64,000 nucleotides of DNA from a bacterium (GTDB lineage: Bacteria > UBA8248). Location of the stretch: contig CBDBEV010000001.1 in assembly GCA_965204535.1 (NCBI GenBank), positions 2,336,001-2,400,000 on the forward strand, written 5' to 3'. This document shows positions 20,254 to 55,240 of this stretch, in pieces (positions within the stretch are counted from its first letter, which is position 1; each line of letters starts with the position of its first letter). The position numbers were made by a program, and so were the translations under genes. The notes beneath the pieces were generated by a model. That model ran no database searches and had not been told where the DNA came from. It saw nothing but the letters and a program-made list of their open reading frames with translations.

Positions 20254-20749
20254 GATCCCTCCTGTGCGCCTGAAGCGTGACGCCCCATCAAAACACAAAA
20301 CGAGGCCCGTGGGTATCTTTCGCGGCGTCTTTCGATATGCGCGAGATAACTTCATGTTTATCAATTGGTTGCAATGCTTCGCGCGCCGCTCTAAGGGCGA
20401 GGCTCCCCCGCAATTGCCCGCATTTGTCGTTATCGCGTGAGGCGCGAGCATGGCAGAATTCCTCTGTGCCGCGACCCGGCTGCGTCATTTCCCGAGAATT
20501 TAATTTTCATTTATTTATCGAAAGACACGTTCATAGTCCCACCCTATAGACAATCGTACGACTGGATACCCACAAGCACGATAAACCACTGTATTAAAAG
20601 CAGTAGTTATCATACTTTCTTTTTCGCCTCCCCTTGCACTTACGTCATATTTACGCTATAACGGACGCATATTTGATGCCGGACGTATGCGATTTGATTA
20701 CGGATCGTCCATATCCTCCGGCCCGTGACACGATTTCCTGGGAGTGCCC

Positions 20750-23094: not shown

Positions 23095-23517
23095 GCCACC
23101 GTGCGCAACTCCCGGGAAACCCGGCCGATGATGAACGGTTATCCTGTATCTCCATCCCCGGCCCCGAACGGGTCTTCTCCATCGCGTTTTCTCACGTTTT
23201 TCTGTCATACCCCTGCGCAGCGGAGCGTATCTGTGAGCGTATTCGGAACAATTCCGTAGGATATGAGCTATTAAAACCTGTTGCCGGCGACGCATTTTCG
23301 TATTACATACGCATCGATGAATGCGATCGAATCCCGCACCGGGACCACCCCGGCCTGTCAATCGAGACGCAGCATCGAGACCCGGCTCGCAAGCCGTCCG
23401 GCACCATCGCCGGGGATCGGTTGGCCGAACGCGTCTCCACCCCACCCGGGAGAGGCCGGCAAGTGACTCCCGGAGGAAAATCACGGCTATCCATCAAATC
23501 CTGAAAGGGAGAACCGA

Positions 23518-25602: not shown

Positions 25603-28403
25603 TGGTCGTCTCGATCGGCGCCGTCGCCGCCCCCGCCCAGGGCGCCTCCTACTACGAGCGCGACGGCTATTACGCCAAGGACGATCCTGCCCACAGGGAG
25701 GTGAGCGCATGGGCCGGGAGGGGAGCGGAAGACCTCGGCCTCACGGGCACGGTCGACCCGGAAGTCTTCAAGGCGGTGCTCGAAGGCGAAGTGCCCGACG
25801 GTTCGGGGAGAAGGCTCGGTCGCAGGCGCAAGGACGGCGTCCTGGAGCACCGTCCCGGACGCGACCTCACCTTCTCGGCGCCCAAGTCCGTCTCGCTCGC
25901 CGCGCTGGTGGGCGGCGACGCCCGCGTCGTCGAGGCCCATGACCGGGCCGTCGAACGCACCCTCGCCTGGGTCGAGGGCCACGCCGCCGAGACCAGGATG
26001 AAGGACCCGGAGACGGGACGCATGGTCCGGGCCGGGGATCAGAAAACGGTGGCCGCGACCTTCCGCCACGATGCCTCGCGCAACCTCGACCCCCAGCTTC
26101 ACACCCACGCGGTGCTGGCCAACATGGTCCGGGGTCCGGACGGCAAGTGGAGGACGATGTCCAACGAGGCGCTCTACCGCCGCCAGAAGCTGATCGGCAT
26201 GCTCTACAGGAGCGAACTGGCGCAGGGACTGGGGAAGCTGGGCTACGGGATAGAGAAGACGCACGCCGACGGTCGGTTCGAGGTCGCCGGCGTCCGCCGC
26301 GAGGTGATCGAGGCGTTCTCGACCCGGCGGGCGGAGATCGAGGCCGCGATGGCCGAGCGGGGCCTGGGAACGACGGCGGAGAATCAGCGCATCGCCGAGC
26401 GCGCGGCGCTCATGACCCGCGCCCGCAAGCGTGACGTGGACAAGTCCGCGCTCAGGGGCATATGGGAGAAACAGGCCACGGACCTCGGATTCGACGCCAG
26501 GGCCCATGCAGCCGAAGCGACCTCAAGGGTCGCCGGCATTGAAGGCAAAGGAGAGGCCCGGGAGACCAGTCCGGCCAAAGAGGCCGTGGAGTGGGCCGTG
26601 GCGCATCTCGCGGAGCGCGAGGCCGTGTTCGCCCGTGCCGACGCTCTCGCCGCCGCGCTGGCCTGGCGGCCGGGCGCGGTGTCCGTCGAGGCGGCGGAGA
26701 GGGCGCTGGGCGATCTCGAAAGAGGGGGACGGCTTCACCCCGCGCCGGGGCTGCACGGGAGGGACGACCTGGCGACCGACAAGGCGCTCGCGGACGAGCG
26801 CGAGACGATCGGGCTGATGCGGGGCGGCCAGGGCCGGGGCCGGGTGGCGATGCGCAGCTGGATCGTGCAGGCGCATCTGCACAAGGGAGCGCTGACGCAG
26901 GGCCAGAGGGAAGCGGTCAAGCTCATCCTCTCGGCCAGGGACCGCGTCGTCGGCGTGCAGGGCTATGCCGGGACCGGCAAGACCACGATGCTCAACCGCG
27001 CCCGCGTGTTACTGGAAAAACGCGGGTTCGAGGTCAAGGGCCTTGCGCCCTCGGCCTCGGCGGTGAAGACGCTCGGGACCGAAGCCGGGATCGAGAGCGA
27101 GACCTTGCAGCGCTTTTTGGCGCGCCATGCCGGCGTTGCCGGGGAAAGGCTCACCAGAAAGGCCGAGCGACGGATGCGCACGGCCTGGGGCAAGACGGTG
27201 CTCGTGGTGGACGAGGGGTCCCTCGCCTCCACCCTGCAGGCCCGAGACCTCCTGCGGGTCGCCCGCGCCCTGCGCATCCCCAGGGTCGTGCTGGTGGGCG
27301 ATGAGAAACAACTCGGCGCCGTGGACGCCGGCAAGCCCTTCGCGCAACTCCAGCAAGCCGGCATGAAGACCGCCGTGATGGACGATATCCTGCGCCAGCG
27401 CGACCCGGACCTCAAGGCCGCGGTCGAGGCGAGCCTTGCCGGCGAGATCGGCCGCGCGTTTGAGAAGCTCGGGTCGAACGTCGCTCAGGTGAAGGCCGAC
27501 AACATCGCGGGCGCGGTGGCGGCGCGCTGGCTCGCGCTCTCGCCCGAGGCGCGCGAGAACACCGGCGTCATGGCGCCCAGTCATGAACTTCGCCAAAAGA
27601 TCAACGCCCATATACGCGAGCGTCTCTCGCGCGAGGGCAGTATCCACGGCCCCGCCTACCGGGGGGAGCGGCTCGTCTCCCGCGGTTATACGAACCCCGA
27701 GAAATCGCTCGCCGCGAATTACGCCCCGGGTGACGTCGTGGCCTTCCACCGCCCCTACAAGCGCCTGGGTGTGGAGAAGAGCGACGAACTCCGCGTATCG
27801 GGCGTGGATCACGAGAACCGGACGGTGGCGCTCGAAGGCAAGGACGGCGGGCGCGTCTTGTGGAAACCCGGGCGGATCGCCGGGCGGACGGGCGGCGCCG
27901 AGGTCTACCGGGCCGAAGAGGTCGAGCTTCGCGCCGGCGACCGTATCCGCTGGACCCGCAATGACAGGAAATTCGAGCTGGTCAACAGCCGGACCGCTGA
28001 GGTGATAGGCGTGAGGGACGACCGCGTGAGCTTCCGCCTTGAAGACGGGCGCAGGCTTGAACTCAGGCAAGACGACCCCCAGCTGCGCCACCTCGACCAT
28101 GCCTGGGCATCAACCGTGCACGCCTTCCAGGGCCGGACCGTCGACAACGTGATCGCCGCGATGCAGGCCAACCACCCGCACCTCACCACGCAGAAGAGCT
28201 TCTACGTGGAGATCAGCCGCGCCCGCGACCGGGCGGAACTCGTGACCGACGACGCAAAGGCGTTACGCGAGCGGCTCGAAACGGCCACGGGCGAACGGGT
28301 ATCGGCGCTCGAGGGGATCGGGGAAACTGTACGGGAAGTACCAGCGAAAGAGGGACGAACGACGGATCGCGAGAAGCAGACCGAGCGAGACCTCAGTTTA
28401 TGA
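25599..28403 (+). CDS. trwC: MOB-F conjugative relaxase-helicase (TrwC/TraI family)
   Basis: YYERDGYY, DLTFSAPKSVS, HDASRNLDPQLHTH, GYAGTGKT, VVDE and YVEISR. Confidence 0.95.
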   Translation: MMVVSIGAVAAPAQGASYYERDGYYAKDDPAHREVSAWAGRGAEDLGLTGTVDPEVFKAVLEGEVPDGSGRRLGRRRKDGVLEHRPGRDLTFSAPKSVSLAALVGGDARVVEAHDRAVERTLAWVEGHAAETRMKDPETGRMVRAGDQKTVAATFRHDASRNLDPQLHTHAVLANMVRGPDGKWRTMSNEALYRRQKLIGMLYRSELAQGLGKLGYGIEKTHADGRFEVAGVRREVIEAFSTRRAEIEAAMAERGLGTTAENQRIAERAALMTRARKRDVDKSALRGIWEKQATDLGFDARAHAAEATSRVAGIEGKGEARETSPAKEAVEWAVAHLAEREAVFARADALAAALAWRPGAVSVEAAERALGDLERGGRLHPAPGLHGRDDLATDKALADERETIGLMRGGQGRGRVAMRSWIVQAHLHKGALTQGQREAVKLILSARDRVVGVQGYAGTGKTTMLNRARVLLEKRGFEVKGLAPSASAVKTLGTEAGIESETLQRFLARHAGVAGERLTRKAERRMRTAWGKTVLVVDEGSLASTLQARDLLRVARALRIPRVVLVGDEKQLGAVDAGKPFAQLQQAGMKTAVMDDILRQRDPDLKAAVEASLAGEIGRAFEKLGSNVAQVKADNIAGAVAARWLALSPEARENTGVMAPSHELRQKINAHIRERLSREGSIHGPAYRGERLVSRGYTNPEKSLAANYAPGDVVAFHRPYKRLGVEKSDELRVSGVDHENRTVALEGKDGGRVLWKPGRIAGRTGGAEVYRAEEVELRAGDRIRWTRNDRKFELVNSRTAEVIGVRDDRVSFRLEDGRRLELRQDDPQLRHLDHAWASTVHAFQGRTVDNVIAAMQANHPHLTTQKSFYVEISRARDRAELVTDDAKALRERLETATGERVSALEGIGETVREVPAKEGRTTDREKQTERDLSL

Positions 28404-29129
28404 TTACTAGCTCTCATCGGAGACAGGTGGGAGCGAATGGACTACACGATAGCAGATTTATTGTGATGCCTTTTCGGGCCGTGCCAGATAGTAGCTGTCG
28501 ACCGGTTCCTAGATGGGAAAAACTGAACCTGTTTCGCTCAAACTAGGTGTTCGGAACGTGTGAGCTAAATGATGCGGCTGCCAAGCAGCGAGAGTAATAA
28601 CCCTCGCTATCGGATACAAAGCCGAGCTGCCGCCAAATTCGACAGAAGTCTAGAAAACAAGCCACTTCGAAAATGTCGAAAAAGTTTTGCTGTTAGATGA
28701 GTCGACCCATACGCTAAATAGAGTGTCGCCACCCGATTCGCCTCGACCGTCTGAGATTGTCACGATGACAAACCGACCCGATAGGGTGCCTGGACAGAAG
28801 CCGGAATGCGGTGCGGGAGAATCTGCCGAACGCTCCGGTATCAACTGGCTGTAAGCGTGTTTGCTATCGTGGAATACCGACACAACGATTCGCAACAACT
28901 CATAATTATTGCATCTTCGGCCAAGTTGACCAATACTATTGCTACTGCTGTCGGGGAGGGAATGCATATCCTGAGCGGCAAGTACGAAAAGTATGGTTAT
29001 GGGCGGCTGGTCAATATCGCCCGAGTTGTCGCTGTGATAGTGACCAAACAAGAGCGACCGATCATTGTCGTTCTGTAGCTGGAGAAATATGATCGACTGA
29101 ATTCGCAGGATATTCGTGAAGACCCCCGG

Positions 29130-29348
29130 ACGATGCGGAACGCAATGGCCGCACAGAAGGCGGCCGAGTCTGGAAAGTCGGAGTCGACGAGATCGAGGCG
29201 CACGAATACAATCTCGATATTAGAAACCTGCATACGACGGAGCCGGAACCCATAGAAACTGCTGAAGGAACTGGCCACAGTCGAAGCGGAAGTGACATTG
29301 GCAAGGGATTAATTGAAAAACACGCTGGCGGAAGGGCTATTGCGATGA
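29130..29348 (+). pseudogene. Remnant of a type I R-M methyltransferase (HsdM) C-terminus
   Basis: AERNGR...VWKV..DEI....YNLDIRN.H, then a frameshift to LL.E.....E....RD*LK..L; resembles HsdM C-termini. Confidence 0.6.
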
Positions 29349-29393
29349 CTTCGGGGAACTGCACCATTCATCCACGACGGAGGAGAACTGAGC

Positions 29394-29705
29394 ATGCACG
29401 CAGCCATTGCTGACAAACGCGATGAACTCGTAGCACTCTGTCGGCAATATCAGGTCGCTCGGCTTGAGGTCTTCGGCTCGGCGGCAAGGGGCACAGACTT
29501 CGACCCGGTATCCAGCGACGCCGACTTCCTGGTGGAATTCAGACTCCACGACGACCGGAAACCGCTCCAACAATACTTCGGCTTTTCCGAAGCGTTACGC
29601 CAGACGCTGGGCCGTCCGGTCGATTTGGTCGAAGCAGGGGCGATCCGCAACCCGTATCTTCGAGCGGCCATCGACAAGTCACGCGAGCTTGTCTATGCAG
29701 CGTGA
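29394..29705 (+). CDS. Minimal nucleotidyltransferase antitoxin (MntA-like)
   Basis: VFGSAARG.DF...SDADFLVEF and LGRPVDLV. Confidence 0.9.
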   Translation: MHAAIADKRDELVALCRQYQVARLEVFGSAARGTDFDPVSSDADFLVEFRLHDDRKPLQQYFGFSEALRQTLGRPVDLVEAGAIRNPYLRAAIDKSRELVYAA

Positions 29706-30051
29706 CCCAAGCGTCCTGCTGGCGGATGTGGATCAGGCCGCTGAGCACATTGTGCACTTCACTGAAAGCATGCATCGCGAGGCCTATCTAGCCGACGCGC
29801 GAACGCAAGCCGCCGTCGAACGCAAGTTCGAGATCATCGGCGAGGCGCTCAATTCCCTGTCTAAGGTCTCGCCCGAGATTGCCGAACGGATTCCCACCAT
29901 GCGTGTGGTCGTCGACTTCCGCAACGTGTTGATCCATGGCTATGCTGTCGTGATGCCCGAACGCGTCTGGGATTACGTCGTTAACGACTTGCCGGAACTG
30001 CATCGGATCATAAAGGTGCTGCTTTCTGAGATGGATCCGCCAGATGTATGA
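29695..30051 (+). CDS. HepT-like HEPN ribonuclease toxin (DUF86)
   Basis: AVERKFEIIGEA and FRNVLIHGY (RX4HXY); overlaps the MNT gene. Confidence 0.9.
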   Translation: MQRDPSVLLADVDQAAEHIVHFTESMHREAYLADARTQAAVERKFEIIGEALNSLSKVSPEIAERIPTMRVVVDFRNVLIHGYAVVMPERVWDYVVNDLPELHRIIKVLLSEMDPPDV

Positions 30052-30751
30052 ACACTGGGCGGTTGCGCACGAGATGCCCTGCAACATGGAGCCGTCCGAA
30101 TTGAGATACACTAAGACTCGCATCCTGAGCGACCAAGCCGGCACGGGAAGCCAAAGCTCGAATCAGTCCACTGTTGTGTCCGCCCGCTCCCTGTTACGGT
30201 ATTTGCTCTACCTGACTGGAGTGCAGGCCCTTCTCGCCACTATCCTGTACAATCGCCTGCTCGACGCCTTTCTGGATGTATCATCCTGCTCACTGCAGAT
30301 CCACCTGTGCACCACCATCAAGTCAATCGGCCAGACCGAGGTCGACGAGATTTACGTCGCAGTTGACAGCAACGGCAGACAGTTCGTACTACCTGTCCAG
30401 GCCCAAGGCGGTAGCGACGAGTTCTCCGTCGTCCGGTTCCAACAGCACCTCCTGTGGTGCCGCAAGCGACTTCCAGACATGATCTACCGCCCCATCCTGA
30501 CGCAGTTTGCCGTAGACGACCTGATCGCGATGTTCGAGATGACGACAAACCACGGCGAGTTCAAGATGGTGCAGGAGAAGCACTGCCGTCTCGTCCCATC
30601 GGCGGAGGTCATTCCCGGGATCTGTTTTGTTTTCGCAACGCCGCCTGAGAAAATCGAGAAGGCACATGGAATCGCATCTTCAAACCTCTTTGTCCCTACT
30701 TCTGCTCGATTCTGCCTTCGGCCATTTCCATCCGAGCCAGTTGCCGCATGA
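30044..30751 (+). pseudogene. Degenerate PD-(D/E)XK restriction-endonuclease-like ORF
   Basis: QALLA...YNRL.D.FL...SLQ.HL.TT.K.IGQ.E.DE.YV..D.....PVQAQGG; N-terminus appears unrelated and the expected QAK reads QAQ. Confidence 0.45.
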
Positions 30752-31650
30752 GCGAAACTGACCGAATCCGGCTGAAGTACGAGGATGACCGTCTTCTCGA
30801 CCGCCTCAATTCGCTCGACGATGTAAACCGGTTCGTACTCACTTTCTGCAGGGACGTGACCCGGATATTTCGCATGGTCACGCTACAACGCAACCCAAGT
30901 CGAAACCCCGATGGTTACGGCCTTGCTGACGCGCCGATCGTCGGTCTCCTGACTCGTGTCGCGAAGTTGTTCGAGCTAGTCACCAGATTCTACGAAATCA
31001 ACAATGGTGATTACCTTAACGTGTTTTCTCGTCCGCTGATCGAGTCGGCAATCGTCGCTACCTATCTCTTGCAAATGGGAGACGACGCTGTAGAGGACTT
31101 CCGAAGGTGCTCGTACAAGGACACGCTCAGGATACTGCGTGACCAGGAAAGCGGATCCGAGTTCTTTGGTAGCCCTGCGGGTCAGCGCGTTCTACGATCC
31201 GCCATTGAGGGCCTCGCTATCGAGGGGCTGTCCAAAGAGAGCTTCTCCGTGCAGAAGCGAAATCGTTGGCGCCTCCAAGGAAAGTCGCTATACGACATCT
31301 TTGGCCAAGTGGCTAGCCCAGCTGAATATCCGTTCGTCTACGGTATGATGTCCGAATCCATACACGGTTCGTGGAACGAATCCATGGATTGGTGTCTTTC
31401 GCGAAACGACGACGGTACCTTCTCCGCATTCGCTCTGTACCATGACGTTGACGCCAGGACAATCCTGCCCTTGATCCGATACGCGACGCCCCCGTACGTC
31501 CTATGGTTCGAGAGAATCCAGTTGCAGGACGATTCCTTACTCGAGGTTCTCTATCGGCTCCAAGACTACGGCCGTGCGATCTACTTCAAGTTCGACGAAC
31601 TCTATGACGGCCCTGCTGCTGGGGGTTCTGCAGCCCCCGCCACGAACTAA
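30748..31650 (+). CDS. DUF5677-like helical protein, paralogue 1
   Basis: R.LIE......YL and YG..SESIHGSW; collinear similarity to the next ORF. Confidence 0.65.
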   Translation: MSETDRIRLKYEDDRLLDRLNSLDDVNRFVLTFCRDVTRIFRMVTLQRNPSRNPDGYGLADAPIVGLLTRVAKLFELVTRFYEINNGDYLNVFSRPLIESAIVATYLLQMGDDAVEDFRRCSYKDTLRILRDQESGSEFFGSPAGQRVLRSAIEGLAIEGLSKESFSVQKRNRWRLQGKSLYDIFGQVASPAEYPFVYGMMSESIHGSWNESMDWCLSRNDDGTFSAFALYHDVDARTILPLIRYATPPYVLWFERIQLQDDSLLEVLYRLQDYGRAIYFKFDELYDGPAAGGSAAPATN

Positions 31651-31685
31651 GCTACATAGTTCTTCAAAGTGGGCCACGCAAACAC

Positions 31686-32561
31686 ATGAGCATGGACGAG
31701 ATACAGGACATCCTCGCTAAATACGACCGTGACTACCGTGCGCGGCTCCTTGCCTCCACGCCGGAGGCGGACCAACTGACGCTGACCTTTTACGAGGATG
31801 TCGCGGAGATTCTCGACGTCCTCTCCCGCCTGAAGAACATCGAAAGGAACCCGACGGGCTTCTCTATCGACGATGCCACGATACTCGGCCTGCTCGTCCG
31901 CACGTGGAAACTACTGAAACTCATCCTCTGGATCTACAGGGAGGACAGCGCGGAGTTCGCGGCCATCGCCGAACGATCGCTCATCGAGGTGGCCGTCACT
32001 GCTACCTATCTGCTCCGTTCGGACAAATTGACGTTGGAAGACTATCGGCGCTGTTCCTACAGAAACAGACTCCAGATGCTCGAACAAGCGGCTTCCGGGT
32101 CCGAATACTATAACAGCAAACCTGGGCGCCGGCTCTTACGATCGATCAACGAAAAGCTCGCCCGAGAGGGGTTGGACGAACACAGCTTCGAGAAACAGAT
32201 TCGAAACAACTGGCGCGTTCAGGGCAAGACGTTCCATCAGATATTCAAGGAGGTAGTAGGCGAAGACTTCTATGCCGTGGCATACGGCACCTTCTCGCAA
32301 TCTGTCCACGGTTCTTGGCAAGATGTCATCAACTTCTCCTTGCGCGGGAACGTCGCTCGAGGTTACTCGCCGTTGTACGAACCGCTTCACGTCAGCGTCG
32401 GCCACGTATCGCTGATCCTCCCGTTTGCTACACTGCCGTTTCGAGGGTGGGCAAGAAGAGTCAAGTTAGACAATCCGTACATCAAGGAAGTGTTGGACTT
32501 TATCGACAAACTCAATAGAGGATTGTTCGAGAAATACGGGAACCTCTTTTACGGTTATTGA
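31686..32561 (+). CDS. DUF5677-like helical protein, paralogue 2
   Basis: RSLIE......YL and YG..SQSVHGSW. Confidence 0.65.
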   Translation: MSMDEIQDILAKYDRDYRARLLASTPEADQLTLTFYEDVAEILDVLSRLKNIERNPTGFSIDDATILGLLVRTWKLLKLILWIYREDSAEFAAIAERSLIEVAVTATYLLRSDKLTLEDYRRCSYRNRLQMLEQAASGSEYYNSKPGRRLLRSINEKLAREGLDEHSFEKQIRNNWRVQGKTFHQIFKEVVGEDFYAVAYGTFSQSVHGSWQDVINFSLRGNVARGYSPLYEPLHVSVGHVSLILPFATLPFRGWARRVKLDNPYIKEVLDFIDKLNRGLFEKYGNLFYGY

Positions 32562-32940
32562 CGTCGCCTTCGGACACAAACGCCGACAGAACAAGCTCAA
32601 TTACGTCCCGTCCTTTAACCTCTTGCGAGGCCAACGTTTTCAGTCGGTAGGGGTGTGCAGGAAAGAACTGCCCACTTGCCCCCAGACGGAGTTATTTTCA
32701 AAGCCGACGCAACGCTGATGCTCTTCCGGCAACACCCGCCATCACATGAAACGGCGGAAATGCTCTTGAATTCAAGAATTTGTAACTTGCTTCGTCCCAC
32801 ACCACCGCACGACCCCTTGAGACAAACGCCGTGGCGACCGCTTCATTCCCGGATTGCAGATCGCTCCGATTAACCCATCAGCTTCATCAAGAATTTTTGG
32901 AGAAACGGGAGCGAGTTGCGAACCCTCCGATATTGCAAAA

Positions 32941-33780
32941 TCATTCTTCAGCATCAAAGGTTTCGAACTCCCTTCTCTTGTCAAAAACCGGCAAGTCGAA
33001 ATTTTCCGGAGGAACATCTGAAAAATAGTATTTTGTTTCTTTTCCTTTGAAACAATATAGATCGTGCCGCCCTCTATAGTCCGGCCCCCAGAAAATTTCC
33101 AGCCTGTCACCGAGTTCATCCCATCCGTCAGAGTTCATCCTGATATGTAACCAGTTTCTATATTTCTTTTGCCGCACATTTTGTAACCGCCAGCTATGAG
33201 TGCATCGAAAAGGGTCGAACATATCGTTCTCCGCGGATTCGATGATTTTGATGCACCCGAAGACGATTTCGTGCAAATAATCCACGCTGACCAATGGTAT
33301 CTTCTGGCTTCGCTTTTCCTCGATGAGGAAGTACCGCCAGTCGAAAGAGCCAATGTAGTCTCCGCGTTCATTCTTGTCGCCGTCGAGATTTACAAGGAAG
33401 TCGTCGAGAGACTTGAATGGAAACCTCCCTGTGTTCCCACCGATGGTTGCTTGGTAGTCGGTATAGTATTCGCGGAGGACCGTCTTGTCATTTTCTTCCA
33501 ACAAATCGAATAGAGTAGATAGCGAGTGTTCTTTGGGCACCTCCTTCCCGCGAACGTATAGAAGCGCCTTGAAAGACTCTTCGACCAGGAAATAGCCAAC
33601 GACAACGTAGCCCCATCCTTGCGCCTCTACATGACCGGGAGCCATGTCCGGCAATACCGGACATCTTTCGTATTTCTCCTTCTCTTTTTTCAAGGCCGTA
33701 TCCAACCATGCCGTGATAAGCAACGGATATTTGAAGTCAATGGGTTGGTTCGCCGCCACGATAACGCTCCTTTGTGTCAT
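32941..33780 (-). CDS. HEPN-like domain protein
   Basis: F.VE..FKAL.......EH.L..LF..L and F.WRY HEPN-type pattern. Confidence 0.6.
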   Translation of the reverse strand: MTQRSVIVAANQPIDFKYPLLITAWLDTALKKEKEKYERCPVLPDMAPGHVEAQGWGYVVVGYFLVEESFKALLYVRGKEVPKEHSLSTLFDLLEENDKTVLREYYTDYQATIGGNTGRFPFKSLDDFLVNLDGDKNERGDYIGSFDWRYFLIEEKRSQKIPLVSVDYLHEIVFGCIKIIESAENDMFDPFRCTHSWRLQNVRQKKYRNWLHIRMNSDGWDELGDRLEIFWGPDYRGRHDLYCFKGKETKYYFSDVPPENFDLPVFDKRREFETFDAEE

Positions 33781-33871
33781 TCTCAGCGCACAAAAATCAC
33801 TGATAGATAATAATTCCCCAATAATACCGTACTGAATCTGTCAGTTTCCCCTCCTTCGTCCCCCTCTCCCA

Positions 33872-34057
33872 CGCCTCAAGCGGTGCGCGCATTTTTTCGT
33901 AAAGGGCGAAGAGGTGCTCAACGCGCTTGCGCTCAGAGGCGATACCGCTTCGGCGATAGAGTCTGCCCACAGTGCGGTCAAGAGTATGATGGGCCCGGCG
34001 CAGATCGGGCGGCATGCAGTACAACTCATAGAGGCGGTCAAAGTTGCGTCTGGGTGC
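33872..34057 (-). pseudogene. Fragment of an MmeI-type gene 3' end
   Basis: HPDATL / LY...MPPDLRRAHHTLDRTVGRLYRRSGIASERKRVEHLFALYEKMRAPLE matches the C-terminus of 36288-39074. Confidence 0.9.
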
Positions 34058-34209
34058 ACCAGACCGTGATGTCCGGCGAAAACCTGCCCTTGATCGGAAG
34101 GTTACTCGGACATAAGCGGCATAGAACCACGGCGGGGTATGCCCACTTCGTCGACTCGCACCTTGTCGAAGCGGCAGAGAAGGTGCAGACGTTATCAACG
34201 AGACGATAA
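34058..34209 (+). pseudogene. Fragment of a tyrosine integrase C-terminus
   Basis: GENLPLIGRLLGH....TAGYAH resembles the ends of the integrases at 20.7-23.1 kb. Confidence 0.85.
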
Positions 34210-35049
34210 ATTCTGAGCGGAATATTCTCCAATTGTCGCTCGCAAAGCATTCATAAACTCGCTCGCAACATTACAGTAATTCACGAGAGCAAAATCTCTC
34301 GACTTATCTGCTGGGAAATTGGCCAAAGTCCATTTTCTTAAGAATCCTGAGCCGTGCGCTTCGGGTGTTCTAATGTTATCCACCATCCCGATCACGTCCC
34401 TCATTATTTTCAAGAATGGATCTGGAAACGGGATAATTAAATTGAGATTGTCAATTACTTTAGCCGCGTTCCTATGTTTTGCATGAATAAGCCAAGTCCT
34501 AATGACATTCGTTAGACATTTTCGGAAATGCAACGAAATTTAGGGCCAGTCTTGGGAGTGCTTGACAAAGTAGTCCTTTCGGCTTTTTGCCTTGATAAAT
34601 TTCTCGTACTTTTGATATTCGTAAAGCAGAAACAAAATCCCCATGAATTTGTCCCAAAATGCACGAATTCGGAACGATAAAGCCGATAAAACGTAAAGAA
34701 TATTTGCTTTTCCGGAGAATAGCTCGAAATCTTCGAGCACTGACCCCGACGCAATCTTTCCTCTATTGTTCAGTTGATTATGTAAACCGCCAGCTAAATT
34801 CACATCTTTCATCATGAACAGGTAGGTCAACTCAAGATCGACATAGGCATTCAACAGCTTGCCGTTAATGCGATCATCATCGCAGTGTATGCGGGAGTAC
34901 TTGTAGATGTTGCGAATGTCGTCGCATACGTTATATCCAGGAATAGTTGCCTCTCCGTAGCGGCTAATGCATGTCGCAAAGTCTTCTGCATCTTGAAGAG
35001 AAGTAATACGGAATGGTTCCGGCTCCTGAAACACACCTTCTCCAATCAT
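34195..35049 (-). pseudogene. HEPN-like gene interrupted by an in-frame TAA
   Basis: ORFs 34540-35049 and 34195-34533 share a frame, separated by one stop at 34540-34542; IRTPEAHG (RX4H). Confidence 0.6.
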
Positions 35050-35103
35050 GATTGTATTGTCCTAGAGGTTGGCTTGCTTCTTGTCAGACGTACCGCTTTT
35101 TCC

Positions 35104-35175
35104 TCAATCCACCTCCAGCGGCGTGCGCATTTTCTCAAAGAGCGCGAACAAATGTTCCACGCGGTCGAGCTCGGA
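35104..35175 (-). pseudogene. Short fragment of an MmeI-type gene 3' end
   Basis: Translates SELDRVEHLFALFEKMRTPLEVD*. Confidence 0.85.
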
Positions 35176-35197
35176 GGGGTAATGGGCTGTGAGTTCC

Positions 35198-36241
35198 TCA
35201 TTCAGAGGCAGTCTCTACAACTCCGAATAGTCTATAAATTTCCTGCCTCAATTGATCATTGCAATCAAACTCCACCGACTTCAAAGATATCATGTAATCT
35301 ACCTGTTCTTTGCTGCGAAACGGCTTGCGGCGTATTTCACGGACTTCTTCGGAACTAAAGTATCGATGGAGGTAATCATACGGGTTTTTGCCCTTCCCTA
35401 TTTGTGTAACAAGAATTGTGATCCATTGCGCAGCGCCTTTGCGTCTCTTCAAATCTTCAATTTCAAAGAAATCTCTTTCCTCGTCCGTTACGTTTCGGGC
35501 AAATAGGTTTTCGATTTTTTCATATAAATCTTTCAACATTTTGAAATGTTCCCCTACAACTACAGGCAAATCTATACTCTCACCTATGGAACGCTCGATA
35601 TAAGCCTTCGATACGCTATTCCATCTCCCAATTTTCAGATTTTCTTTGCCAATCTTCAAAGTGCCAATCGATATCCCGTCTCTCCAAGATATTTGCCATT
35701 CCGGAACGATAACGGCCCCATGAGATAAATTATTTCTCAACTCCCTTATGAATACGGCAACATCACAACCAAAATTTTCTGTTTTGATTTCCTCGATTAT
35801 GGTATTTATATCATCAGGGCACTCTCGCTGAATATTTTCAAGTGTTTGTTGCAGGCCAACTACCAAAGCGCAATAAGCCATCATGTCCTTTTGCGCCGCG
35901 TGCCCTACGACATGGGCTACATGTGTTTCGAAATCAGCGTCCTTCGAAAAGGCTCCAAGGGCGGCAGCATGACGGCAAATATCAATGTATGCCTGGTGAG
36001 CCGCCGAGTACAGCGCTTTCAAACTTTCCTTCAATCTGTTCTTTTTCCAGTAGACATGATGACGCATTAAGCTCATTCGCTCCGGCTCAATGCGCCAGTT
36101 AATGATGTTTCGAATTTCGTCACAAGTGGGGATATCACCACGCTTCAGGTATGAAATAACTTTACGATTTTCAACGTCCCTTTGTTGGCGTTTCATCTCC
36201 GAAGATCTCTTGAAAAGCTCCCAATTATCCGGTTCTTTCAT
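35198..36241 (-). CDS. Hypothetical protein with HEPN-like RX4H motif
   Basis: FIRELRNNLSHG; GAGG RBS before ATG at 36241; low GC. Confidence 0.6.
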   Translation of the reverse strand: MKEPDNWELFKRSSEMKRQQRDVENRKVISYLKRGDIPTCDEIRNIINWRIEPERMSLMRHHVYWKKNRLKESLKALYSAAHQAYIDICRHAAALGAFSKDADFETHVAHVVGHAAQKDMMAYCALVVGLQQTLENIQRECPDDINTIIEEIKTENFGCDVAVFIRELRNNLSHGAVIVPEWQISWRDGISIGTLKIGKENLKIGRWNSVSKAYIERSIGESIDLPVVVGEHFKMLKDLYEKIENLFARNVTDEERDFFEIEDLKRRKGAAQWITILVTQIGKGKNPYDYLHRYFSSEEVREIRRKPFRSKEQVDYMISLKSVEFDCNDQLRQEIYRLFGVVETASE

Positions 36242-36287
36242 TACGACCTCACAAATATCATCGTCATGAATAATCAAGTTTTTGCTA

Positions 36288-39074
36288 TTACCCCCTCCTC
36301 CTCCGCCGCTTCCCACTCACCCCCGCCTCCAAGGGCGCGCGCGATTTCTCGTACAGGGCGAAGAGGTGCTCCACGCGCTCGCGTTCCGAGGCGAAGCCGG
36401 AGCGGCGGTAGAGCCTGTCCACGGCGTGGTCGAGGGCTTGGTGGGCGCGACGCAGAGCGGGCGGCATGAGGTCGGGGGCGTAGAGATCGGCCAGCGTCTC
36501 TTCGGGGTGCGCCGCGCGGGCGTCGAGAACAGCCTGGGCGAGCGGCTCTAGCGCCGAGAGGTCGGCGTCTCCCGGCGGCAATGGATAAGTGTTGTAGACG
36601 AGGCCGCTGGAATAGCGATAGCGACTCTCCAGCCGTCCGCCGATATGACGCAGCCACGCCATGTGCATGGCGGAAGTGAGCAGTGCGAATTGCCATAACT
36701 CGGCGTTTTGAACGACCAGCAGCTGATTGCTCGGAATGGTAGGCGGAGTCAGCCAGCCAATGGGTACATATCGCCTACGTTCCGAGCTCACTTCGGGAAT
36801 GACCAAAAACGGACTCTCCGGGACAACGGAAACGTGATAGTCGGTGGGTTGCTCCGCTAGCGACCGGCCGAGTTTACCAGCTTCGTTCATCCGATAATTT
36901 CTAACTGCGCGAACCCTCTCCATGACGTTGGGCAATGACCGCAAAAGCGACGGCGATTCTCCCGATACATGAAGAATCCAGCGCTTCTTGTTGTTGATGT
37001 ATTCGTCTCCGCCGAGAAACGGCCTTAGTAGATTGGCCGCGCTTGGTTCCCTAGAGATGAACGCCTCCCTTTCTTCCGCTCCGAAAAGGTAGTGGCCGCC
37101 GTCAACGGGTTTCGTCCCTACACTGATTTTCGGAAAATCGGCGATGGGAGTCCTGCGTCTTTGAACGACGAGGTGGGAATCATCCAATCGACCCACGTCG
37201 ATGAGATACGGACTGATCGTGGCAACCCGAATTTCCTGAGAATCACCCGCAGGAGTTTCGTATGCGAACAAACGTCGCTCATTAGACGCGGAGTTCCGGT
37301 CGGACATACCGATAATCACCACATGCACGTGAGCAACGCCGCGGGCATCGGAACCCCATGCAAACGTCCGATGAGCAAAAACGAGCTCCAAGCCGTATCG
37401 ATCGAACAAGGCGGGCCATAATTGCGCTACCTGTTCACCCTGCGTGATGGAATTCGTCGCCACGAAACCGATGCGAGCGCGATTTCCCTGAAGATATGCG
37501 CCCGCTTTCAGAAACCATGCGGCGACATAATCCAGCCTCGATCCTGATGCGCCGAGTTGTTTCATCAATTCTTTCGCCTGTGTTTGCTTCTCCTCAATCC
37601 GCATGACAAAACCCCCAAACGGCGGATTGCCGAAGACGAAAGAACATTCCGCAGGCGGGAGAAGTTCGGCCCAGTCGGTTTCTAGCGCGTCGTCGCACAG
37701 GATGTGCGGGGAGGTGGTGAGTGGAATGCGCGTGTAGGTTTGGCCGAACTCCAGGCTAAGCCGGTTGTTCATGATGTGATCCATCATCCAGAGCGCCGTC
37801 TCGGCGATGCGCGCCGGGAATTCGCCGAGTTCGATCCCGTAGAACTGATCTACGGTGATATGGGAGAGTTCGGCGGCGTCGAGTTCGCGTTGGGCCTCAT
37901 CAGCACGCAGTTCACGGATGACCTCCATCTCCAGTTCGCGCAGTTCGCGATAGGCGATGATGAGGAAGTTGCCGCACCCACAAGCCGGGTCGAAGAACTT
38001 CATCTCGCCGAGGCGTCGCTGAAATGCTTCGAGTTCGACCCGTCGTCGGCTGTCCCTGCGGGCTTTCAACCGCTCGAATTCCGCGCGCAAGTCATCCAGA
38101 AAGAGCGGCTCGATAACTTTCAGGATGTTCTTTTCTGTCGTGTAGTGCGCCCCTTGCGCGCGGCGCTCCGCAGGCTCCATCACGGATTGAAAGAGTGCGC
38201 CGAAGATAGCGGGCGAGATGTTCGACCAGTCGAAGCGGCAGGTTTCGAGCAGGGCGTTTCGCATGGCGGCGTTGAACGACGGAATGCGCAGGGCATCCCG
38301 GAACAAGTCGCCGTTCACGTAAGGAAAGCGCGCGAGGTCCTCATCCAGCGTCCTCTGGCGCTCGTTCTCCGGCGTATCCAGCACCTGGAAAAGTTCGGCC
38401 AGCCGCGAGCCGCTATCCGAGCCGTCCTCGCTCGTGCGCTCTTCGATGTAGTTCAAAAAGATGTCGCGCGGCTCGAAGATGCCCGTATCGTCCGCGAACA
38501 GGCAGAAGACGACGCGCACCAGAAAACGCTCCAGATCGTCCCCCGTATAGCCCGCCTCCGCCAGGGCGTCGTGCAGGTTCCCCGCGAGTTCGGCGGCCTT
38601 GATGTTAGCGGGGTCCTGATCGCGAAAGGCGCGGCGTCGTACGCCCAGGATGAAGCCGAATTTCTCGATGTTGGCGGGCAGATCGGCGAGGGAGAAGGCG
38701 GTGCGCTCGCGTTCGTCCAGATCGTAAAGTTCAAACGTCTGGAAATCGCTCACGAGTATGTGGCCGGGTCTTTCCCGTTCGGGGAGAGCGTCGAAGTATT
38801 CGCCCGCCTGCCCGTAGGCTCGATCGAGTTTGCGGCCCTCGCTTTTCTGCTCGACGAGCAGGACGCGCGGCCAGAAGAGGTCGATGTAGCCGTGGGTGTT
38901 ATCAAGGCGCCTTACGTGCTCCTCGAAGCGCGCGACGGAGCGGCGCCGGACGCCGAAAATCTCGAAGAAATCGTTATAGAAACTCTGTGTCTCGCCTCTT
39001 TCGTATGCTGCGCCCACCCACGCGCGGGCGAAACGTGCCGCGCGGACGCGCATCTCGTTCCAGGACAGGCGCAC
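36288..39074 (-). CDS. MmeI-like type IIL restriction-modification enzyme
   Basis: N-terminal GYIDLFW...LVEQKS nuclease; GAHYT, DPACGCGNF and GNPPF MTase motifs; PEVSSERR.Y.P and YRYS..LVYNTYP target-recognition region. Confidence 0.93.
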   Translation of the reverse strand: MRLSWNEMRVRAARFARAWVGAAYERGETQSFYNDFFEIFGVRRRSVARFEEHVRRLDNTHGYIDLFWPRVLLVEQKSEGRKLDRAYGQAGEYFDALPERERPGHILVSDFQTFELYDLDERERTAFSLADLPANIEKFGFILGVRRRAFRDQDPANIKAAELAGNLHDALAEAGYTGDDLERFLVRVVFCLFADDTGIFEPRDIFLNYIEERTSEDGSDSGSRLAELFQVLDTPENERQRTLDEDLARFPYVNGDLFRDALRIPSFNAAMRNALLETCRFDWSNISPAIFGALFQSVMEPAERRAQGAHYTTEKNILKVIEPLFLDDLRAEFERLKARRDSRRRVELEAFQRRLGEMKFFDPACGCGNFLIIAYRELRELEMEVIRELRADEAQRELDAAELSHITVDQFYGIELGEFPARIAETALWMMDHIMNNRLSLEFGQTYTRIPLTTSPHILCDDALETDWAELLPPAECSFVFGNPPFGGFVMRIEEKQTQAKELMKQLGASGSRLDYVAAWFLKAGAYLQGNRARIGFVATNSITQGEQVAQLWPALFDRYGLELVFAHRTFAWGSDARGVAHVHVVIIGMSDRNSASNERRLFAYETPAGDSQEIRVATISPYLIDVGRLDDSHLVVQRRRTPIADFPKISVGTKPVDGGHYLFGAEEREAFISREPSAANLLRPFLGGDEYINNKKRWILHVSGESPSLLRSLPNVMERVRAVRNYRMNEAGKLGRSLAEQPTDYHVSVVPESPFLVIPEVSSERRRYVPIGWLTPPTIPSNQLLVVQNAELWQFALLTSAMHMAWLRHIGGRLESRYRYSSGLVYNTYPLPPGDADLSALEPLAQAVLDARAAHPEETLADLYAPDLMPPALRRAHQALDHAVDRLYRRSGFASERERVEHLFALYEKSRAPLEAGVSGKRRRRRG

Positions 39075-39571
39075 GTTCTACCTCAGGCGTAACTGCGCAG
39101 GGCGGCGGCGGGTGTATTACAGAGCAATGCTTTTCTCATGATGTTCATGGGACGGACTTTCTCATATTTTTGGGAGCGGTTCCTAGTTCATCGGTCGCAA
39201 ACTCTCCTTCAAAAGTTGAGATTGACCTCGTTCTTCGCTCAGAATTAATTCCGCACGACGACTTAACGCGGGATGGCTAAGGTGCGAATCATTTTGATTT
39301 TAGCGCGCTTTGGGCGAGACTAGCTAGCAAATTGCTCCATGGAAACGAACCTGAGAAAATAGAGTAACAGCATGAGAAGCCACAAGCCTTGACCTGCAAC
39401 AAGCTGACCTTACGGCGTAACCAGTCCAATTATGGGTCGTCGCCATCGCCGGGGCTGCTCAATGCAACCTGACGGGTATGAACTCTACATCATGCGACAG
39501 GCCGCGAAACACTATAAAGCCCAGCATCAGGAAGCTATGGTGCAGCTTGAATCTCTGTAAAAGTTTTGGTT

Positions 39572-40618
39572 TCACTGCGACTTGTGCTGCATACGAGCGT
39601 CTTGAGGGACGACCCAAGCCCTCAGTAAATTTGACCCCTCTACACGATCAAATGAGACCGTTTGATTTGTAGCCAGTAAATTAGCCACGCGGTTTGCCGT
39701 TTCTCGCGATGGCGGCCAATACATTTGAGGCCCAATGATGCGGGGCGTACGTAACTCCAATCGAATAGTACCTTGCGATATCTTTTTCTCCATCTCTTCA
39801 GCATTAGCATAACGTACAAGTTGGATTGCGCCACCCCTCAAACAAAGCTCCAAACCAATATGTTGCTTGTCAAAAGTACTGTTTCTCGCATCGGTCAAAG
39901 CAGCAGACTGAACCTGTCCAAGAAGACATGCTCCATGAGCGCTTACCTCGATGGTCCAAATCGCGAGTTTGTTCGGTTGTATTTTGACCGTGACCTCATG
40001 ATCTCCAATAGCGCATGGAATTTCGCCTCGTAACCACAATTGCCAAATAAGATCAAGCGAGCCTGTTTCCCAAGAAGCGCCAGGCGGTAAATCCACGGCG
40101 ATCGATCCGCTTGGACCATCAGATATTGGTGCAACAGACAAATAGCTGGTACTTTTCCATTCAGCAACCCAAAACACGAGAGAGTGTAAGACTTTCTGTA
40201 CTTCCAATGCCAAACGATCTTCAGTCAGACCTTCGGCCACAAGAGTCTTTATGCCAGCGGCTTCAGCTCTTTCGATAGCCCCGGACGTATAGCCTGAAGC
40301 AGCCACATAGATTCCAAGATTTGTATTAATACCAATATCCTGTAACTTGCCGACAAATGCATCAATTAGCTCTACACCGACACGTTCTCCATAATTCTTA
40401 CATTCAATCGGAATATGGACGGGGCAACCGAATAACTCCTCTGACGCCACCTTCAGCAATACATCTACTTCTCGTACTCGTTCCGATCCGTCAGCGGTTG
40501 GTAAACGAGCATTGCGTTCAACATCATCGCCAGCAATCTTATACAGAAATTCGACTAGGGTTTCCAGAAATTTGCCTTTTGAGTTTGCATCGTGATTTGT
40601 CATCAGATTCCGTTTCAC
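39572..40618 (-). CDS. Mrr-like restriction endonuclease domain protein
   Basis: KG..LE.LV, REVDV, IECKNY...V....IDAF.GKL.D and G....SGYT..A. Confidence 0.8.
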   Translation of the reverse strand: MKRNLMTNHDANSKGKFLETLVEFLYKIAGDDVERNARLPTADGSERVREVDVLLKVASEELFGCPVHIPIECKNYGERVGVELIDAFVGKLQDIGINTNLGIYVAASGYTSGAIERAEAAGIKTLVAEGLTEDRLALEVQKVLHSLVFWVAEWKSTSYLSVAPISDGPSGSIAVDLPPGASWETGSLDLIWQLWLRGEIPCAIGDHEVTVKIQPNKLAIWTIEVSAHGACLLGQVQSAALTDARNSTFDKQHIGLELCLRGGAIQLVRYANAEEMEKKISQGTIRLELRTPRIIGPQMYWPPSRETANRVANLLATNQTVSFDRVEGSNLLRAWVVPQDARMQHKSQ

Positions 40619-40726
40619 TATTCAGGTAGGTTTCGAAACATTTTATACTCAGTCTCTGGTCAATTGATACTATTCTAAATTGATCTTCGACTGCGCTACT
40701 CCTTTTATGTGGGCACTAGCCTAGTA

Positions 40727-40776
40727 TCCAACAGCTTACGCATTATCTCATATGACATGAACAGGTTCTCCACGCG
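40727..40776 (-). pseudogene. Degenerate MmeI 3'-end fragment
   Basis: RVENLFMSYEIMRKLLD aligns without gaps to RVEHLFALYEKMRAPLE. Confidence 0.6.
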
Positions 40777-41242
40777 CAGAATCCATCTCCGAGCAACTGG
40801 CTCGATAGCCATAAACCCGCTACCGAAGACGGCTGAATTCCCTTCATATTGCACAAGTTAAACAATCGCTAAAATCTTTTGGAGGTGGCTTACTCAAATC
40901 TGCGGACCACTCACGCGTACAGTATTGGTGGGGCGCGATCGGCCTGTTAGCGCAAAAGAGTCGGCATTGTGAGTGATGTCCCGCCGGGGGGCGGCTCACC
41001 GGCCCTGCGCCATCCTTCCAGATTCCATCTGCGCGAGAAGATAGCGATGCCGTACAATAACTGGAGATGCGGCGCTCGCACTCGCGCGCATGCCACAGGC
41101 GGCGTAGTTCAGACCTCCGCGTGTTGAGGTTGTGCCTGACATACGGATTATGTGGAACTCCACATAATCCGCATTGTGTCCACTGGCCACGGCGTTTCCG
41201 CACGTTGGAGGCGTGGACGAGAGCAACAGATTTGAGATGAGA

Positions 41243-41293
41243 GGTCCTATGGGGGTCCTATAAGGGTCTATTGGAGTCTTATGGAGGCCTAAT
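41243..41293 (+). repeat. Degenerate short tandem repeat (~11 bp unit, GGTCCTAT-like)
   Basis: ggtcctatggg ggtcctataag ggtctattgga gtcttatggag gcctaat. Confidence 0.5.
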
Positions 41294-41874
41294 CAGAGAG
41301 ACGTTGACGATTCGGTGATTCGGAATAGCGATAATCCAGTCTAGTGCCATGGAGCTCATTTCAAAAAATCCGACCATTCATGCATGATGCGAGAATCGGC
41401 GCAAATACTCTTCGGGCCTCAAGATATATTCGAGGCATTGGAAATCCCTAGAATGACACGGTCGAGGGTAAGGTTTTTTGCATTGATGCGGGATGCCAAT
41501 CAGGGCGGGGTGTCCTGGGTACCTACAAGACTTTTCTATTACATGCGGCTGGTGAATCTGCCCATTTGCAACCAAATTATCGGCACGCACGTTACCCAAT
41601 GCACGGGAATGTGGAAGGCAGCAATCCGCTGAAAGTAACAAGTGAAAAAATGGATAAGGTACAAAAAGAAACTCTCTGACATTTTGTTTTTGGGCTCGTT
41701 GATCTTTGAATCTATTGAGTATTAAGGAAGCGAATATCGCGATTTGTCTGTGACCTCATTCGATCGGCCCGAGTTGCTGTCATGAATCACCCTGCGATCC
41801 GGCGGCCAAACATGTCGAACACACCCGCCATATTGATGAGAACCTTCGAATTCAATGTTGATAAATCAACTGTG

Positions 41875-42633
41875 TTATTGGATGTAAGCTCGAATCGTGG
41901 CAATAATCCGGGCGACATCAACCCATGCATCTGAATAGGTTAAACCTCTTCTCCACCCCAAATGCCAACTTGTTTTCGGCATGGTTGAGTGAGTCCCCTT
42001 TATGAAGGGCACACTATCGATTACATCAGAATTTGAACTGATGGTTTCGCTTTGCTTTTTGAAATAATTCTCCCAAATGATTTCCTTCAATTCTGGCCAA
42101 GAGTCAATTTCCCGTAAAATTTTTTGCAAGTCGCGGCAGCCGGGAGCTTCTGCGTCCCAAGGGCTGATTTTGTCGGTTTTTCCACTCAATGATCTTTCGG
42201 CCAATGCGCAAGCCACTAGGCAAATATCCTCACGTGTCAGAACCAGACGTTCAATTTGTTGCAAAAACACATCACGAGCAACAATTATTCTCTCGTTCGA
42301 ATCGTTGGAAACGTCCAGTTTCTCAGCATGAAAGTGAAGGTAGTGCATGTGGATAATCATTCCAAGAATACGCTTCAGAGGTATTTGGACTTCGTTTTGG
42401 TATTCGTCCATCCCTTTAATGTTCCATCCCCGTAAATGTACAGGGAGGAGTCTTCCACTCGGGTCAGCATCTTGAATCGTTGTGATGATATCCCGAGCCG
42501 GGAGGACAAGATGTGCAAAATGGTATGCCGTCCTCGTGTCGCTGTATCCGCCTCCTAGTGGCAGAACACACTTAATCCGTTTAATTTCGGGCAAGTTTTT
42601 GCGCAAGATTTCTACCTGATCGGCAATAAGCAT
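41875..42633 (-). CDS. Hypothetical protein
   Basis: 252-aa low-GC ORF with GAGGT RBS; no family recognised. Confidence 0.65.
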   Translation of the reverse strand: MLIADQVEILRKNLPEIKRIKCVLPLGGGYSDTRTAYHFAHLVLPARDIITTIQDADPSGRLLPVHLRGWNIKGMDEYQNEVQIPLKRILGMIIHMHYLHFHAEKLDVSNDSNERIIVARDVFLQQIERLVLTREDICLVACALAERSLSGKTDKISPWDAEAPGCRDLQKILREIDSWPELKEIIWENYFKKQSETISSNSDVIDSVPFIKGTHSTMPKTSWHLGWRRGLTYSDAWVDVARIIATIRAYIQ

Positions 42634-42701
42634 TTTCGTTTACCTCTTCGGAATTTCGCTGTTTCGTGTGACTGTAGCGAGAAAAACAGCCCGTGAAAAA
42701 C

Positions 42702-43085
42702 TCATTCGGAAGCATTTTCCATGATGGATTCCTGTGACTCGCGGGCGTCTTTTATGGTCCGGTCGAGTTCATTCTTGCGTCCTTCGCGCACCAATTCATC
42801 CCGCTTCAGCGTGGAAAGAAGGTATACGCCTCGATAGATCCGCTCGAGCTGGGCTGCGATTTCAGGTGGAAACCCCGGAGAATTTGCGGTCAGCTTGCCC
42901 GTAGCGAAACCCATTGCGGCATGACGAACGAGTTCGGCGGCCGTCATTCCGCGCTCCCTGGCCTCCTTTTCAATGCAAGTCCACTCGAAATCGGAGAACC
43001 GGATCGAGCGTGGCGAACGCGATTCGCCATGTTTTTCGTCGGGATTCTCGCTGGAATCGCCGGCGACGGAATGGTTTTCGGTCAT
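42702..43085 (-). CDS. Ribbon-helix-helix protein, probable relaxosome accessory factor
   Basis: PRSIRFSD.EW..IE..A..RGM...ELVR; GGAGGT RBS; adjacent to the oriT candidate. Confidence 0.7.
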   Translation of the reverse strand: MTENHSVAGDSSENPDEKHGESRSPRSIRFSDFEWTCIEKEARERGMTAAELVRHAAMGFATGKLTANSPGFPPEIAAQLERIYRGVYLLSTLKRDELVREGRKNELDRTIKDARESQESIMENASE

Positions 43086-55126: not shown

Positions 55127-55240
55127 TTGGAATACCCCCTGTTCCGAGATTTCGAGTTCAAGCTGACGCAACCGGCAGTGAGTCTTTCCGCGAGAGGCGG
55201 ATTCCTGCGGTATGCGCCCACCTCGAACCCGGGCTGGTGT

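What the first reader, a model, noticed from the sequence alone, without database searches (positions are those of the whole stretch)
32941..40776. Candidate defence-gene array punctuated by repeated MmeI 3' ends
Seen: the last codons of the MmeI-type gene (RVEHLFALYEK.R.PLE) occur four times on the minus strand: 40727-40776 (degenerate), the intact end at 36288, 35104-35175 and 33872-34057. Each lies about 50-110 bp upstream of a different lower-GC gene (Mrr-like nuclease, RX4H protein, RX4H pseudogene, HEPN-like protein). The copies differ from one another, suggesting separate donors. Inference: the MmeI 3' end acts as a recombination anchor for serial capture of downstream defence genes, giving an integron-like hotspot without attC sites.
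Basis: partly seen in the sequence, partly recalled or inferred. Interest (0 to 1): 0.72.

Follow-up and report, generated by a model that had tools for sequence, protein, structure and literature searches.

The report
Gene-tail scars stacking defence-like genes
Behind a restriction-enzyme gene, unrelated and probably defensive genes are stacked between leftover copies of that gene's last codons, and 18 ordinary genes in the same genome carry the same scar, so this is likely a general recombination-driven way of inserting genes rather than a dedicated integron-like system.

Summary
An intact MmeI-family gene and three decayed same-strand copies of its last 70-215 bases each precede a different low-GC gene; the weakest copy scores E=4e-5 genome-wide. 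Relatives show these neighbours are exchanged at the copies: one copy switches from a G020-type left side to a G008-type right side inside its last 80 bases, and another strain swaps the first cassette between two tail copies. It is not an MmeI-specific, integron-like site: left junctions vary (86-359 nt before the stop), there is no attC-like fold and no integron integrase, and 18 other genes in this genome carry the same tail duplication (21 tail-then-downstream pairs, 0 upstream), several around restriction or toxin-antitoxin inserts, with empty sites in relatives. This is a serial form of the known but unexplained 'insertion with long target duplication'. The likely mechanism is homology-anchored insertion with one illegitimate joint, then spread by ordinary recombination using the scar as second arm. 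Defence roles of the four cassettes are inferred only. The scan noted similar gene-tail scars earlier on other DNA.

The parts
40709..40777 (-). Degenerate MmeI 3'-end remnant (c0), upstream of the intact gene; relic of an older array
   Evidence: E 4e-5 genome-wide
39572..40600 (-). Mrr_cat-domain nuclease gene following c0 (GC 0.47)
   Evidence: PF04471 E 7.5e-7; type IV REase E 0.0098
36288..39074 (-). Intact MmeI-family type IIL restriction-modification gene, 928 aa; target-recognition part has foreign GC3 (0.57-0.58 vs 0.71-0.83)
36288..36560 (-). Conserved 3' block of the MmeI gene (about 87% mean identity among 10 genus alleles), source of the remnants
35198..36241 (-). Cassette 1: 347-aa helical protein, HEPN-like, R169-NNLS-H174 at the end of a helix
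35093..35182 (-). MmeI 3'-end remnant c2; carries a 45-nt internal deletion relative to the G020 copy
34195..35049 (-). Cassette 2: 284-codon HEPN-like gene (invariant R-TPEA-H in family), broken here by one in-frame stop at 34540-34542
34060..34209 (+). Inverted 3' stub of a tyrosine integrase gene, fused to remnant c3; same junction in two G020 copies
33846..34059 (-). MmeI 3'-end remnant c3 (about 215 nt, frameshifted); exchange point lies within 33940-33860
32941..33780 (-). Cassette 3: 279-aa protein with weak HEPN similarity; follows the intact MmeI gene in G008, G022 and L069
   Evidence: (PF05168 E 0.0014, below cut-off)
20744..43085 (+). Host element: paired tyrosine integrases, TrwB, TrwC relaxase, 14-kb variable cargo (28336-42701), NikA-like gene; outer ends not mapped

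Best explanation
The array is a record of repeated gene insertions just behind the MmeI gene, each likely made by homologous pairing in the gene plus one illegitimate joint that lands 90-360 bases before the stop codon, which leaves an old gene tail and its old neighbour pushed downstream. Step 1 (inferred): incoming DNA with another allele of the gene and that allele's own neighbour pairs by RecA; the far end joins at a non-homologous point, either directly or through a small circle. The gene stays whole and a tail is duplicated. Step 2 (shown comparatively, enzyme inferred): once a gene-insert-tail unit exists, the tail serves as a second homology arm, so units are added, swapped or carried into empty sites by ordinary recombination, junction included. 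The process is genome-wide. MmeI collects many rounds probably because it is mobile, its conserved tail flanks a frequently swapped specificity domain, and its neighbours are accessory. The cassettes are probably RNase/nuclease defence or addiction genes (inferred).
For: Remnant c3 is 85-97% identical to G020 copy r2 from 34300 to 33900, sharing the integrase junction and a 1-nt deletion, then 80-87% to G008 where the same gene follows the intact MmeI. In run X4 one contig matches 31500-35119 and 36317-36579 with 1406 other letters between, both breaks inside tail copies. Three passenger families occur both after intact genes and after remnants. Genome census: 21 tail-then-downstream pairs at 19 genes, 0 tail-upstream, 1 among 11 inverted pairs (19:0, p 4e-6); most repeats end at the stop codon. 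Empty sites in relatives: 1 of 22, 2 of 22 and 4 of 23 loci for three ordinary genes; one insert plus junction sits before different right-hand contexts in G000/G012 and G020. Mismatches are third-position biased (75/59/147; remnants 228/181/406). MmeI alleles are conserved-variable-conserved mosaics. RecA, ComEC, DprA and ComM are present.
Against: No junction microhomology could be established. The codon bias exceeds a fresh-copy-then-decay null at 1.7:1 (p 0.007, 0.001) but not at 2:1 (p 0.09, 0.11). Competence genes are common (ComEC and DprA over cut-off in 10 of 14 control genomes), so they are weak support. Homology-facilitated illegitimate recombination is described as rare (PMC5361080). 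Short remnants of 70-90 nt at 74-83% identity are poor RecA substrates today (own knowledge). Remnants follow only 11 of 139 MmeI genes, 7 of them in this genus. No age gradient along the array was seen.
Confidence: 0.68

Rival explanations
1. Fresh duplication at a DNA break: a cut (for example by a restriction enzyme) is repaired so that the resident sequence is copied on both sides of the insert, as proposed for insertion with long target duplication; allele differences arose later.
For: The scar has the same shape (PMC2853133). Several inserts are restriction systems. Third-position bias does not exclude a 2:1 null. At one site empty relatives resemble the gene copy more than the remnant (0.96-0.97 vs 0.91-0.92).
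Against: It does not explain why repeats stop at the stop codon, the natural end of homology between alleles with different neighbours. Many inserts have no restriction enzyme. It does not account for exchange inside remnants.
Confidence: 0.12
2. Decay of larger duplicates: whole MmeI-plus-neighbour blocks were duplicated or stacked, then deletions removed all but the tail, kept because it carries expression signals or abuts the next gene.
For: Whole tandem MmeI genes exist (L214, L221). Remnants do erode (45-nt deletion in c2). Lone remnants mark loci that lost or replaced MmeI.
Against: Single-copy housekeeping genes show the same 50-450-nt repeats at up to 97% identity around foreign inserts, with empty sites. 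Many remnants precede convergent genes. No consensus promoter lies in the tails. Internal MmeI segments are almost never left.
Confidence: 0.12
3. A dedicated integron-like system: a tyrosine recombinase of the host element recognises a site in the MmeI tail and captures cassettes.
For: Two tyrosine integrases and a relaxase lie 8-15 kb away. One junction contains an integrase stub. All remnants keep the same last ~60 nt core.
Against: Left ends range from 86 to 359 nt before the stop in 33 remnants. No fold better than shuffles (z -1.45 to +1.18). No integron integrase over cut-off. Arrays also occur at a chromosomal locus with no integrase in the 20 kb fetched (G008, G022). Unrelated gene tails behave alike.
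Confidence: 0.06

Closest known systems
Insertion with long target duplication (Furuta, Abe and Kobayashi 2010, PMC2853133; introduction, discussion and passages read)
   Same: Long, variable direct repeats around inserts under 20 kb, no mobility gene in the insert, empty sites in relatives, restriction genes among the cargo, mostly naturally competent hosts.
   Different: There the RM system is the cargo and tabulated repeats are about 45 bp and nearly identical. Here the RM gene's own tail is the repeated target, rounds are serial, repeats are 50-450 nt and 72-97% identical, end at stop codons, and serve as exchange points.
Sequential displacement arrays: Vibrio T6SS effector-immunity clusters and Rhs/CDI orphan modules (Kirchberger et al. 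2017, PMC5361080; passages read)
   Same: A conserved upstream part anchors incoming DNA, the old neighbour is shifted back, arrays then spread by normal recombination, no integrase is known.
   Different: Those arrays keep immunity genes of one secretion system. Here cassettes are unrelated genes, a gene tail is routinely left, and the same scar occurs behind ordinary genes.
Integrons and attC arrays (recalled; compared with T6SS arrays in PMC5361080)
   Same: Co-oriented, mostly single-gene units separated by a repeated sequence.
   Different: No IntI, no attC-like hairpin, no fixed crossover.
MmeI-family type IIL/IIG enzymes with allelic target-recognition domains (allelic TRDs of type IIG in PMC2853133)
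   Same: All five Pfam MmeI domains; mosaic specificity region between conserved blocks.
   Different: Nothing unusual in the enzyme; the interest lies in its 3' flank.

Membership tests
Insertion with long target duplication | Direct repeat longer than 30 bp, variable in length, flanking an insert under 20 kb | tested here: met
   Repeats of 53-450 nt around 0.6-7.2 kb; window copies 70-215 nt
Insertion with long target duplication | Empty site with a single copy in a relative | tested here: met
   Three ordinary genes: 1 of 22, 2 of 22, 4 of 23 loci. MmeI directly followed by the displaced gene in G008, G022, G004, G001, G007
Insertion with long target duplication | No mobility gene inside the insert | tested here: met
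   No intact recombinase or transposase between the window's tail copies, only a stub; none named among the insert proteins scanned from 14 sites
Insertion with long target duplication | Insert carries both R and M genes (criterion used in PMC2853133) | tested here: not met
   The window cassettes are single non-RM genes; met at one other site (Eco29kI plus MTase) and partly at a second. Hence variant, not strict member
Integron / attC array | Integron integrase IntI | tested here: not met
   TIGR02249: no match over cut-off in the genome (95.7% complete)
Integron / attC array | attC sites that fold as single-strand hairpins with a fixed crossover | tested here: not met
   8 strands folded, z -1.45 to +1.18; left ends vary 86-359 nt
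T6SS/Rhs-type displacement array | Polymorphic toxin gene with orphan immunity or tip modules | tested here: not met
   Anchor gene is an MmeI enzyme; it works like these arrays but is not one
Homology-facilitated illegitimate recombination | RecA-dependent anchor plus microhomology at the illegitimate joint | tested here: inconclusive
   Donor sequences at junctions not available; the integrase junction could not be resolved; RecA dependence needs experiment
MmeI family type IIL RM | Nuclease, helical spacer, MTase, TRD and C-terminal domains with catalytic motifs | tested here: met
   PF20464, 20465, 20473, 20466, 20467 over cut-off; D..EQK, DPACGCG, NPPF
HEPN RNases | Rx4-6H at the end of helix 3 of a four-helix bundle (PMC3710099, passages) | tested here: inconclusive
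   Cassettes 1 and 2 have a conserved motif at a helix end; HEPN structures appear but tie with unrelated bundles (3jrt Z 8.9, rmsd 3.7, 142 aligned; 1jog Z 7.0, rmsd 3.9, 130 aligned). Cassette 3 lacks the motif
Anti-phage defence system | Protection against phage | not testable with these tools
   Window cassettes have no PADLOC hit better than 0.0098 and no NCBIfam hit

The most novel reading that the evidence does not exclude
Some bacteria run a genome-wide, recombinase-free capture route in which any conserved gene's 3' end is an entry site, each capture leaves a tail that becomes a reusable second arm, and mobile genes with a conserved tail such as MmeI thereby grow integron-like libraries of unknown defence genes that travel between species.
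Probability: 0.35. Interest if true: 0.75.

Novelty: new variant of a known kind. Interest (0 to 1): 0.5.

Why it matters
How defence hotspots gain genes without an integrase is poorly understood, and insertion with long target duplication still has no demonstrated mechanism (PMC2853133). This genome offers about 20 sites with a strict polarity, empty sites in relatives and crossovers mapped inside the scars, which gives specific predictions (repeats end where allele homology ends; junctions travel with the insert). Tail scars are also a simple marker for finding recently acquired, unannotated defence and toxin-antitoxin genes.

Tried and rejected
attC-like folding, promoter/terminator consensus and Rfam matches: none. 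No tRNA in the window. Foldseek gave no PDB match at E<=0.001 for either model. Profile comparison of cassettes 1 and 2 was not significant. The Atlas gave only hypothetical clusters plus one cluster 11% HEPN for cassette 3, with recognition below threshold; no Atlas answer was obtained for cassette 2. No RNA holder listed. comM looked like a tail scar, but its repeat extends into the next gene, so the empty-site test was uninformative (15 of 22 'both'). The first census was swamped by REP-like repeats and was replaced by a low-copy filter. Allele origin of the remnant (linear versus circle route) could not be settled. A 3-4-fold higher depth over 33263-36477 in run X3 may be co-occurring strains and was not resolved. 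Literature searches for MmeI-tail arrays listed nothing that describes them, judged from listings and abstract starts; subscription papers and supplements were not seen. The Rhs displacement and pneumococcal recombination papers could not be read.

Full report
Observation. The four copies are real. They form one repeat family, and a profile built from 11 relatives' gene ends, without the window, finds all four in the whole genome, the weakest at E 4e-5. On the minus strand the order is remnant c0, Mrr-like gene, intact MmeI gene (all five Pfam domains and catalytic motifs), cassette 1, remnant c2, cassette 2 (one in-frame stop), an inverted integrase stub fused to remnant c3, cassette 3. The region is cargo of an element with paired tyrosine integrases, TrwB and TrwC. 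Short-read contigs reproduce most of it without differences. A related strain was laid from a run labelled sponge metagenome.

Recurrence. Twenty of 61 genomes had an MmeI match. In 38 stretches examined, 33 remnants were found, starting 86-359 nt before the stop and with about 21 different left-hand contexts (grouped by hand). Among 139 full-length MmeI loci from relatives, metagenomes and other genomes, each gene's last 300 nt gave 19 same-strand downstream hits in 11 loci; three internal segments gave 1, in a partial duplicate. Seven of the 11 are among 11 loci of this genus (L096 assigned by flank identity) and 4 among the other 128; kin are not independent. The first gene downstream fell into 126 families in 151 loci (automatic ORF choice, so some calls are wrong).

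Exchange happens inside the tails. G020 has the same array up to c3, then different genes. Window c3 follows G020 at 85-97%, including the integrase junction and a shared deletion, and switches within 33940-33860 to G008, where cassette 3 sits directly behind the intact gene. A contig of run X4 replaces cassette 1 by 1406 other letters between 35119 and 36317, both inside tail copies. Cassette 3, a 260-270-aa family and DUF1902 each occur both after intact genes and after remnants. The tail is the conserved block behind a mosaic specificity region, and the window gene's specificity part has foreign GC3.

The scar is not specific to MmeI. A census of low-copy local repeats in the genome found 121 direct pairs: 21 join a gene's 3' end to a downstream copy (19 genes, MmeI one of them), none to an upstream copy, 4 join a 5' end to an upstream copy, 3 are mid-gene, 55 lie between paralogues and 38 outside long genes; of 11 inverted pairs 1 fell in the tail class (my own gene calls). 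Most repeats end at the stop codon. Host genes include thiolase, two MFS transporters, cobalamin adenosyltransferase, asparaginase and an amidohydrolase; inserts include Eco29kI with a methyltransferase, MNT-HepT, YafQ-RelB, AbiEii, DarT with NADAR and an Eco57I-like methyltransferase, but also metabolic and unknown genes (41 proteins from 14 sites that I chose). Relatives hold empty sites for three genes tested; comM was uninformative, and most relatives had some other sequence there. At the adenosyltransferase site one insert and junction precede different right-hand contexts that match different empty relatives. In 2.46 Mb around MmeI genes of other taxa 9 such pairs were found, 3.7 per Mb against 4.6 per Mb here; 0.32 Mb from the same family and class gave none.

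Mechanism. Differences between copies favour third codon positions, more than a 1.7:1 fresh-copy null allows but not clearly more than 2:1, so two alleles are likely but not proven. Repeats that end where allele homology ends, variable left joints, no attC-like fold and no integron integrase point to a homologous anchor plus one illegitimate joint, followed by ordinary recombination through the scar. RecA, ComEC, DprA and ComM are present. The enzymes, and whether the donor is linear or circular, are inferred. Against this reading: no microhomology was shown, short old remnants are poor substrates now, and at one site empty relatives resemble the gene copy more than the remnant.

Cassette function. 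Cassettes 1 and 2 keep an R-x4-H motif at a helix end of a helical bundle, as described for HEPN RNases (PMC3710099, passages), but fold matches tie with unrelated bundles. Cassette 3 has only a sub-threshold HEPN match and no such motif. Of 71 neighbours from other loci scanned (58 of the 81 same-strand first genes, short and duplicate ones dropped, plus 13 others), 16 hit PADLOC at E<=1e-5, some only through shared domains; Pfam adds HEPN_LA2681, SIR2, Mrr, GmrSD, ApeA and AlbA_2, and also housekeeping genes. A defence bias is plausible but no control set was scanned.

Known kinds. The shape matches insertion with long target duplication (PMC2853133; introduction, discussion and passages read), whose mechanism is open. 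The serial displacement matches the model for Vibrio T6SS immunity arrays (PMC5361080; passages). Six searches listed no paper on MmeI-tail arrays (listings only). Earlier scan notes report similar gene-tail scars in other genomes; they are unchecked and not counted as evidence.

Verdict. Real feature; first reading partly right; a new, serial variant of a known but unexplained insertion mode. Interest 0.5.

Noticed in passing
window 20744-28403; G000 genome-wide: The element belongs to a family with tandem tyrosine integrases and TrwC; 7 near-full TrwC genes and about 12 integrase pairs are in this genome. A sibling at C2:1664000-1693000 is 92-96% identical in the backbone with different cargo.
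   Followed up: partly
L001:6906-12944 (G000 C2 sibling element): SIR2-like and Swt1-HEPN genes, then an MmeI tail remnant before a 717-aa NERD/SEC-C gene, with no MmeI gene nearby.
   Followed up: partly
window 29394-32561: Other cargo on the + strand: MNT-HepT pair, a type II REase fragment and two DUF5677 genes.
   Followed up: no
L003:11682-14486 (G000 C1): Second MmeI gene with one internal stop; its specificity region is 97-99% identical to that of G012 while its N-terminal half follows G002.
   Followed up: partly
L063:13500-18786 (G006): Three stacked tyrosine-integrase 3' stubs, suggesting the same tail-scar process at integrase genes.
   Followed up: no
L036, L037, L038, L045, L058 and others: A family of small predicted coiled-coil genes (17 copies in the mapped loci) often abuts MmeI remnants, frequently convergently.
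   Followed up: no
L214, L221: Two or three full MmeI genes in tandem in Rhodothermales MAGs.
   Followed up: no
L043:7908-10576 (G044): MmeI followed by a CapP-like peptidase gene and a CD-NTase gene, probably a CBASS locus.
   Followed up: no
window 43779-45263; 51365-55171: A DDE transposase (DUF772 plus DDE_Tnp_1_6) and a 1268-aa Calx-beta/cadherin-like protein.
   Followed up: no
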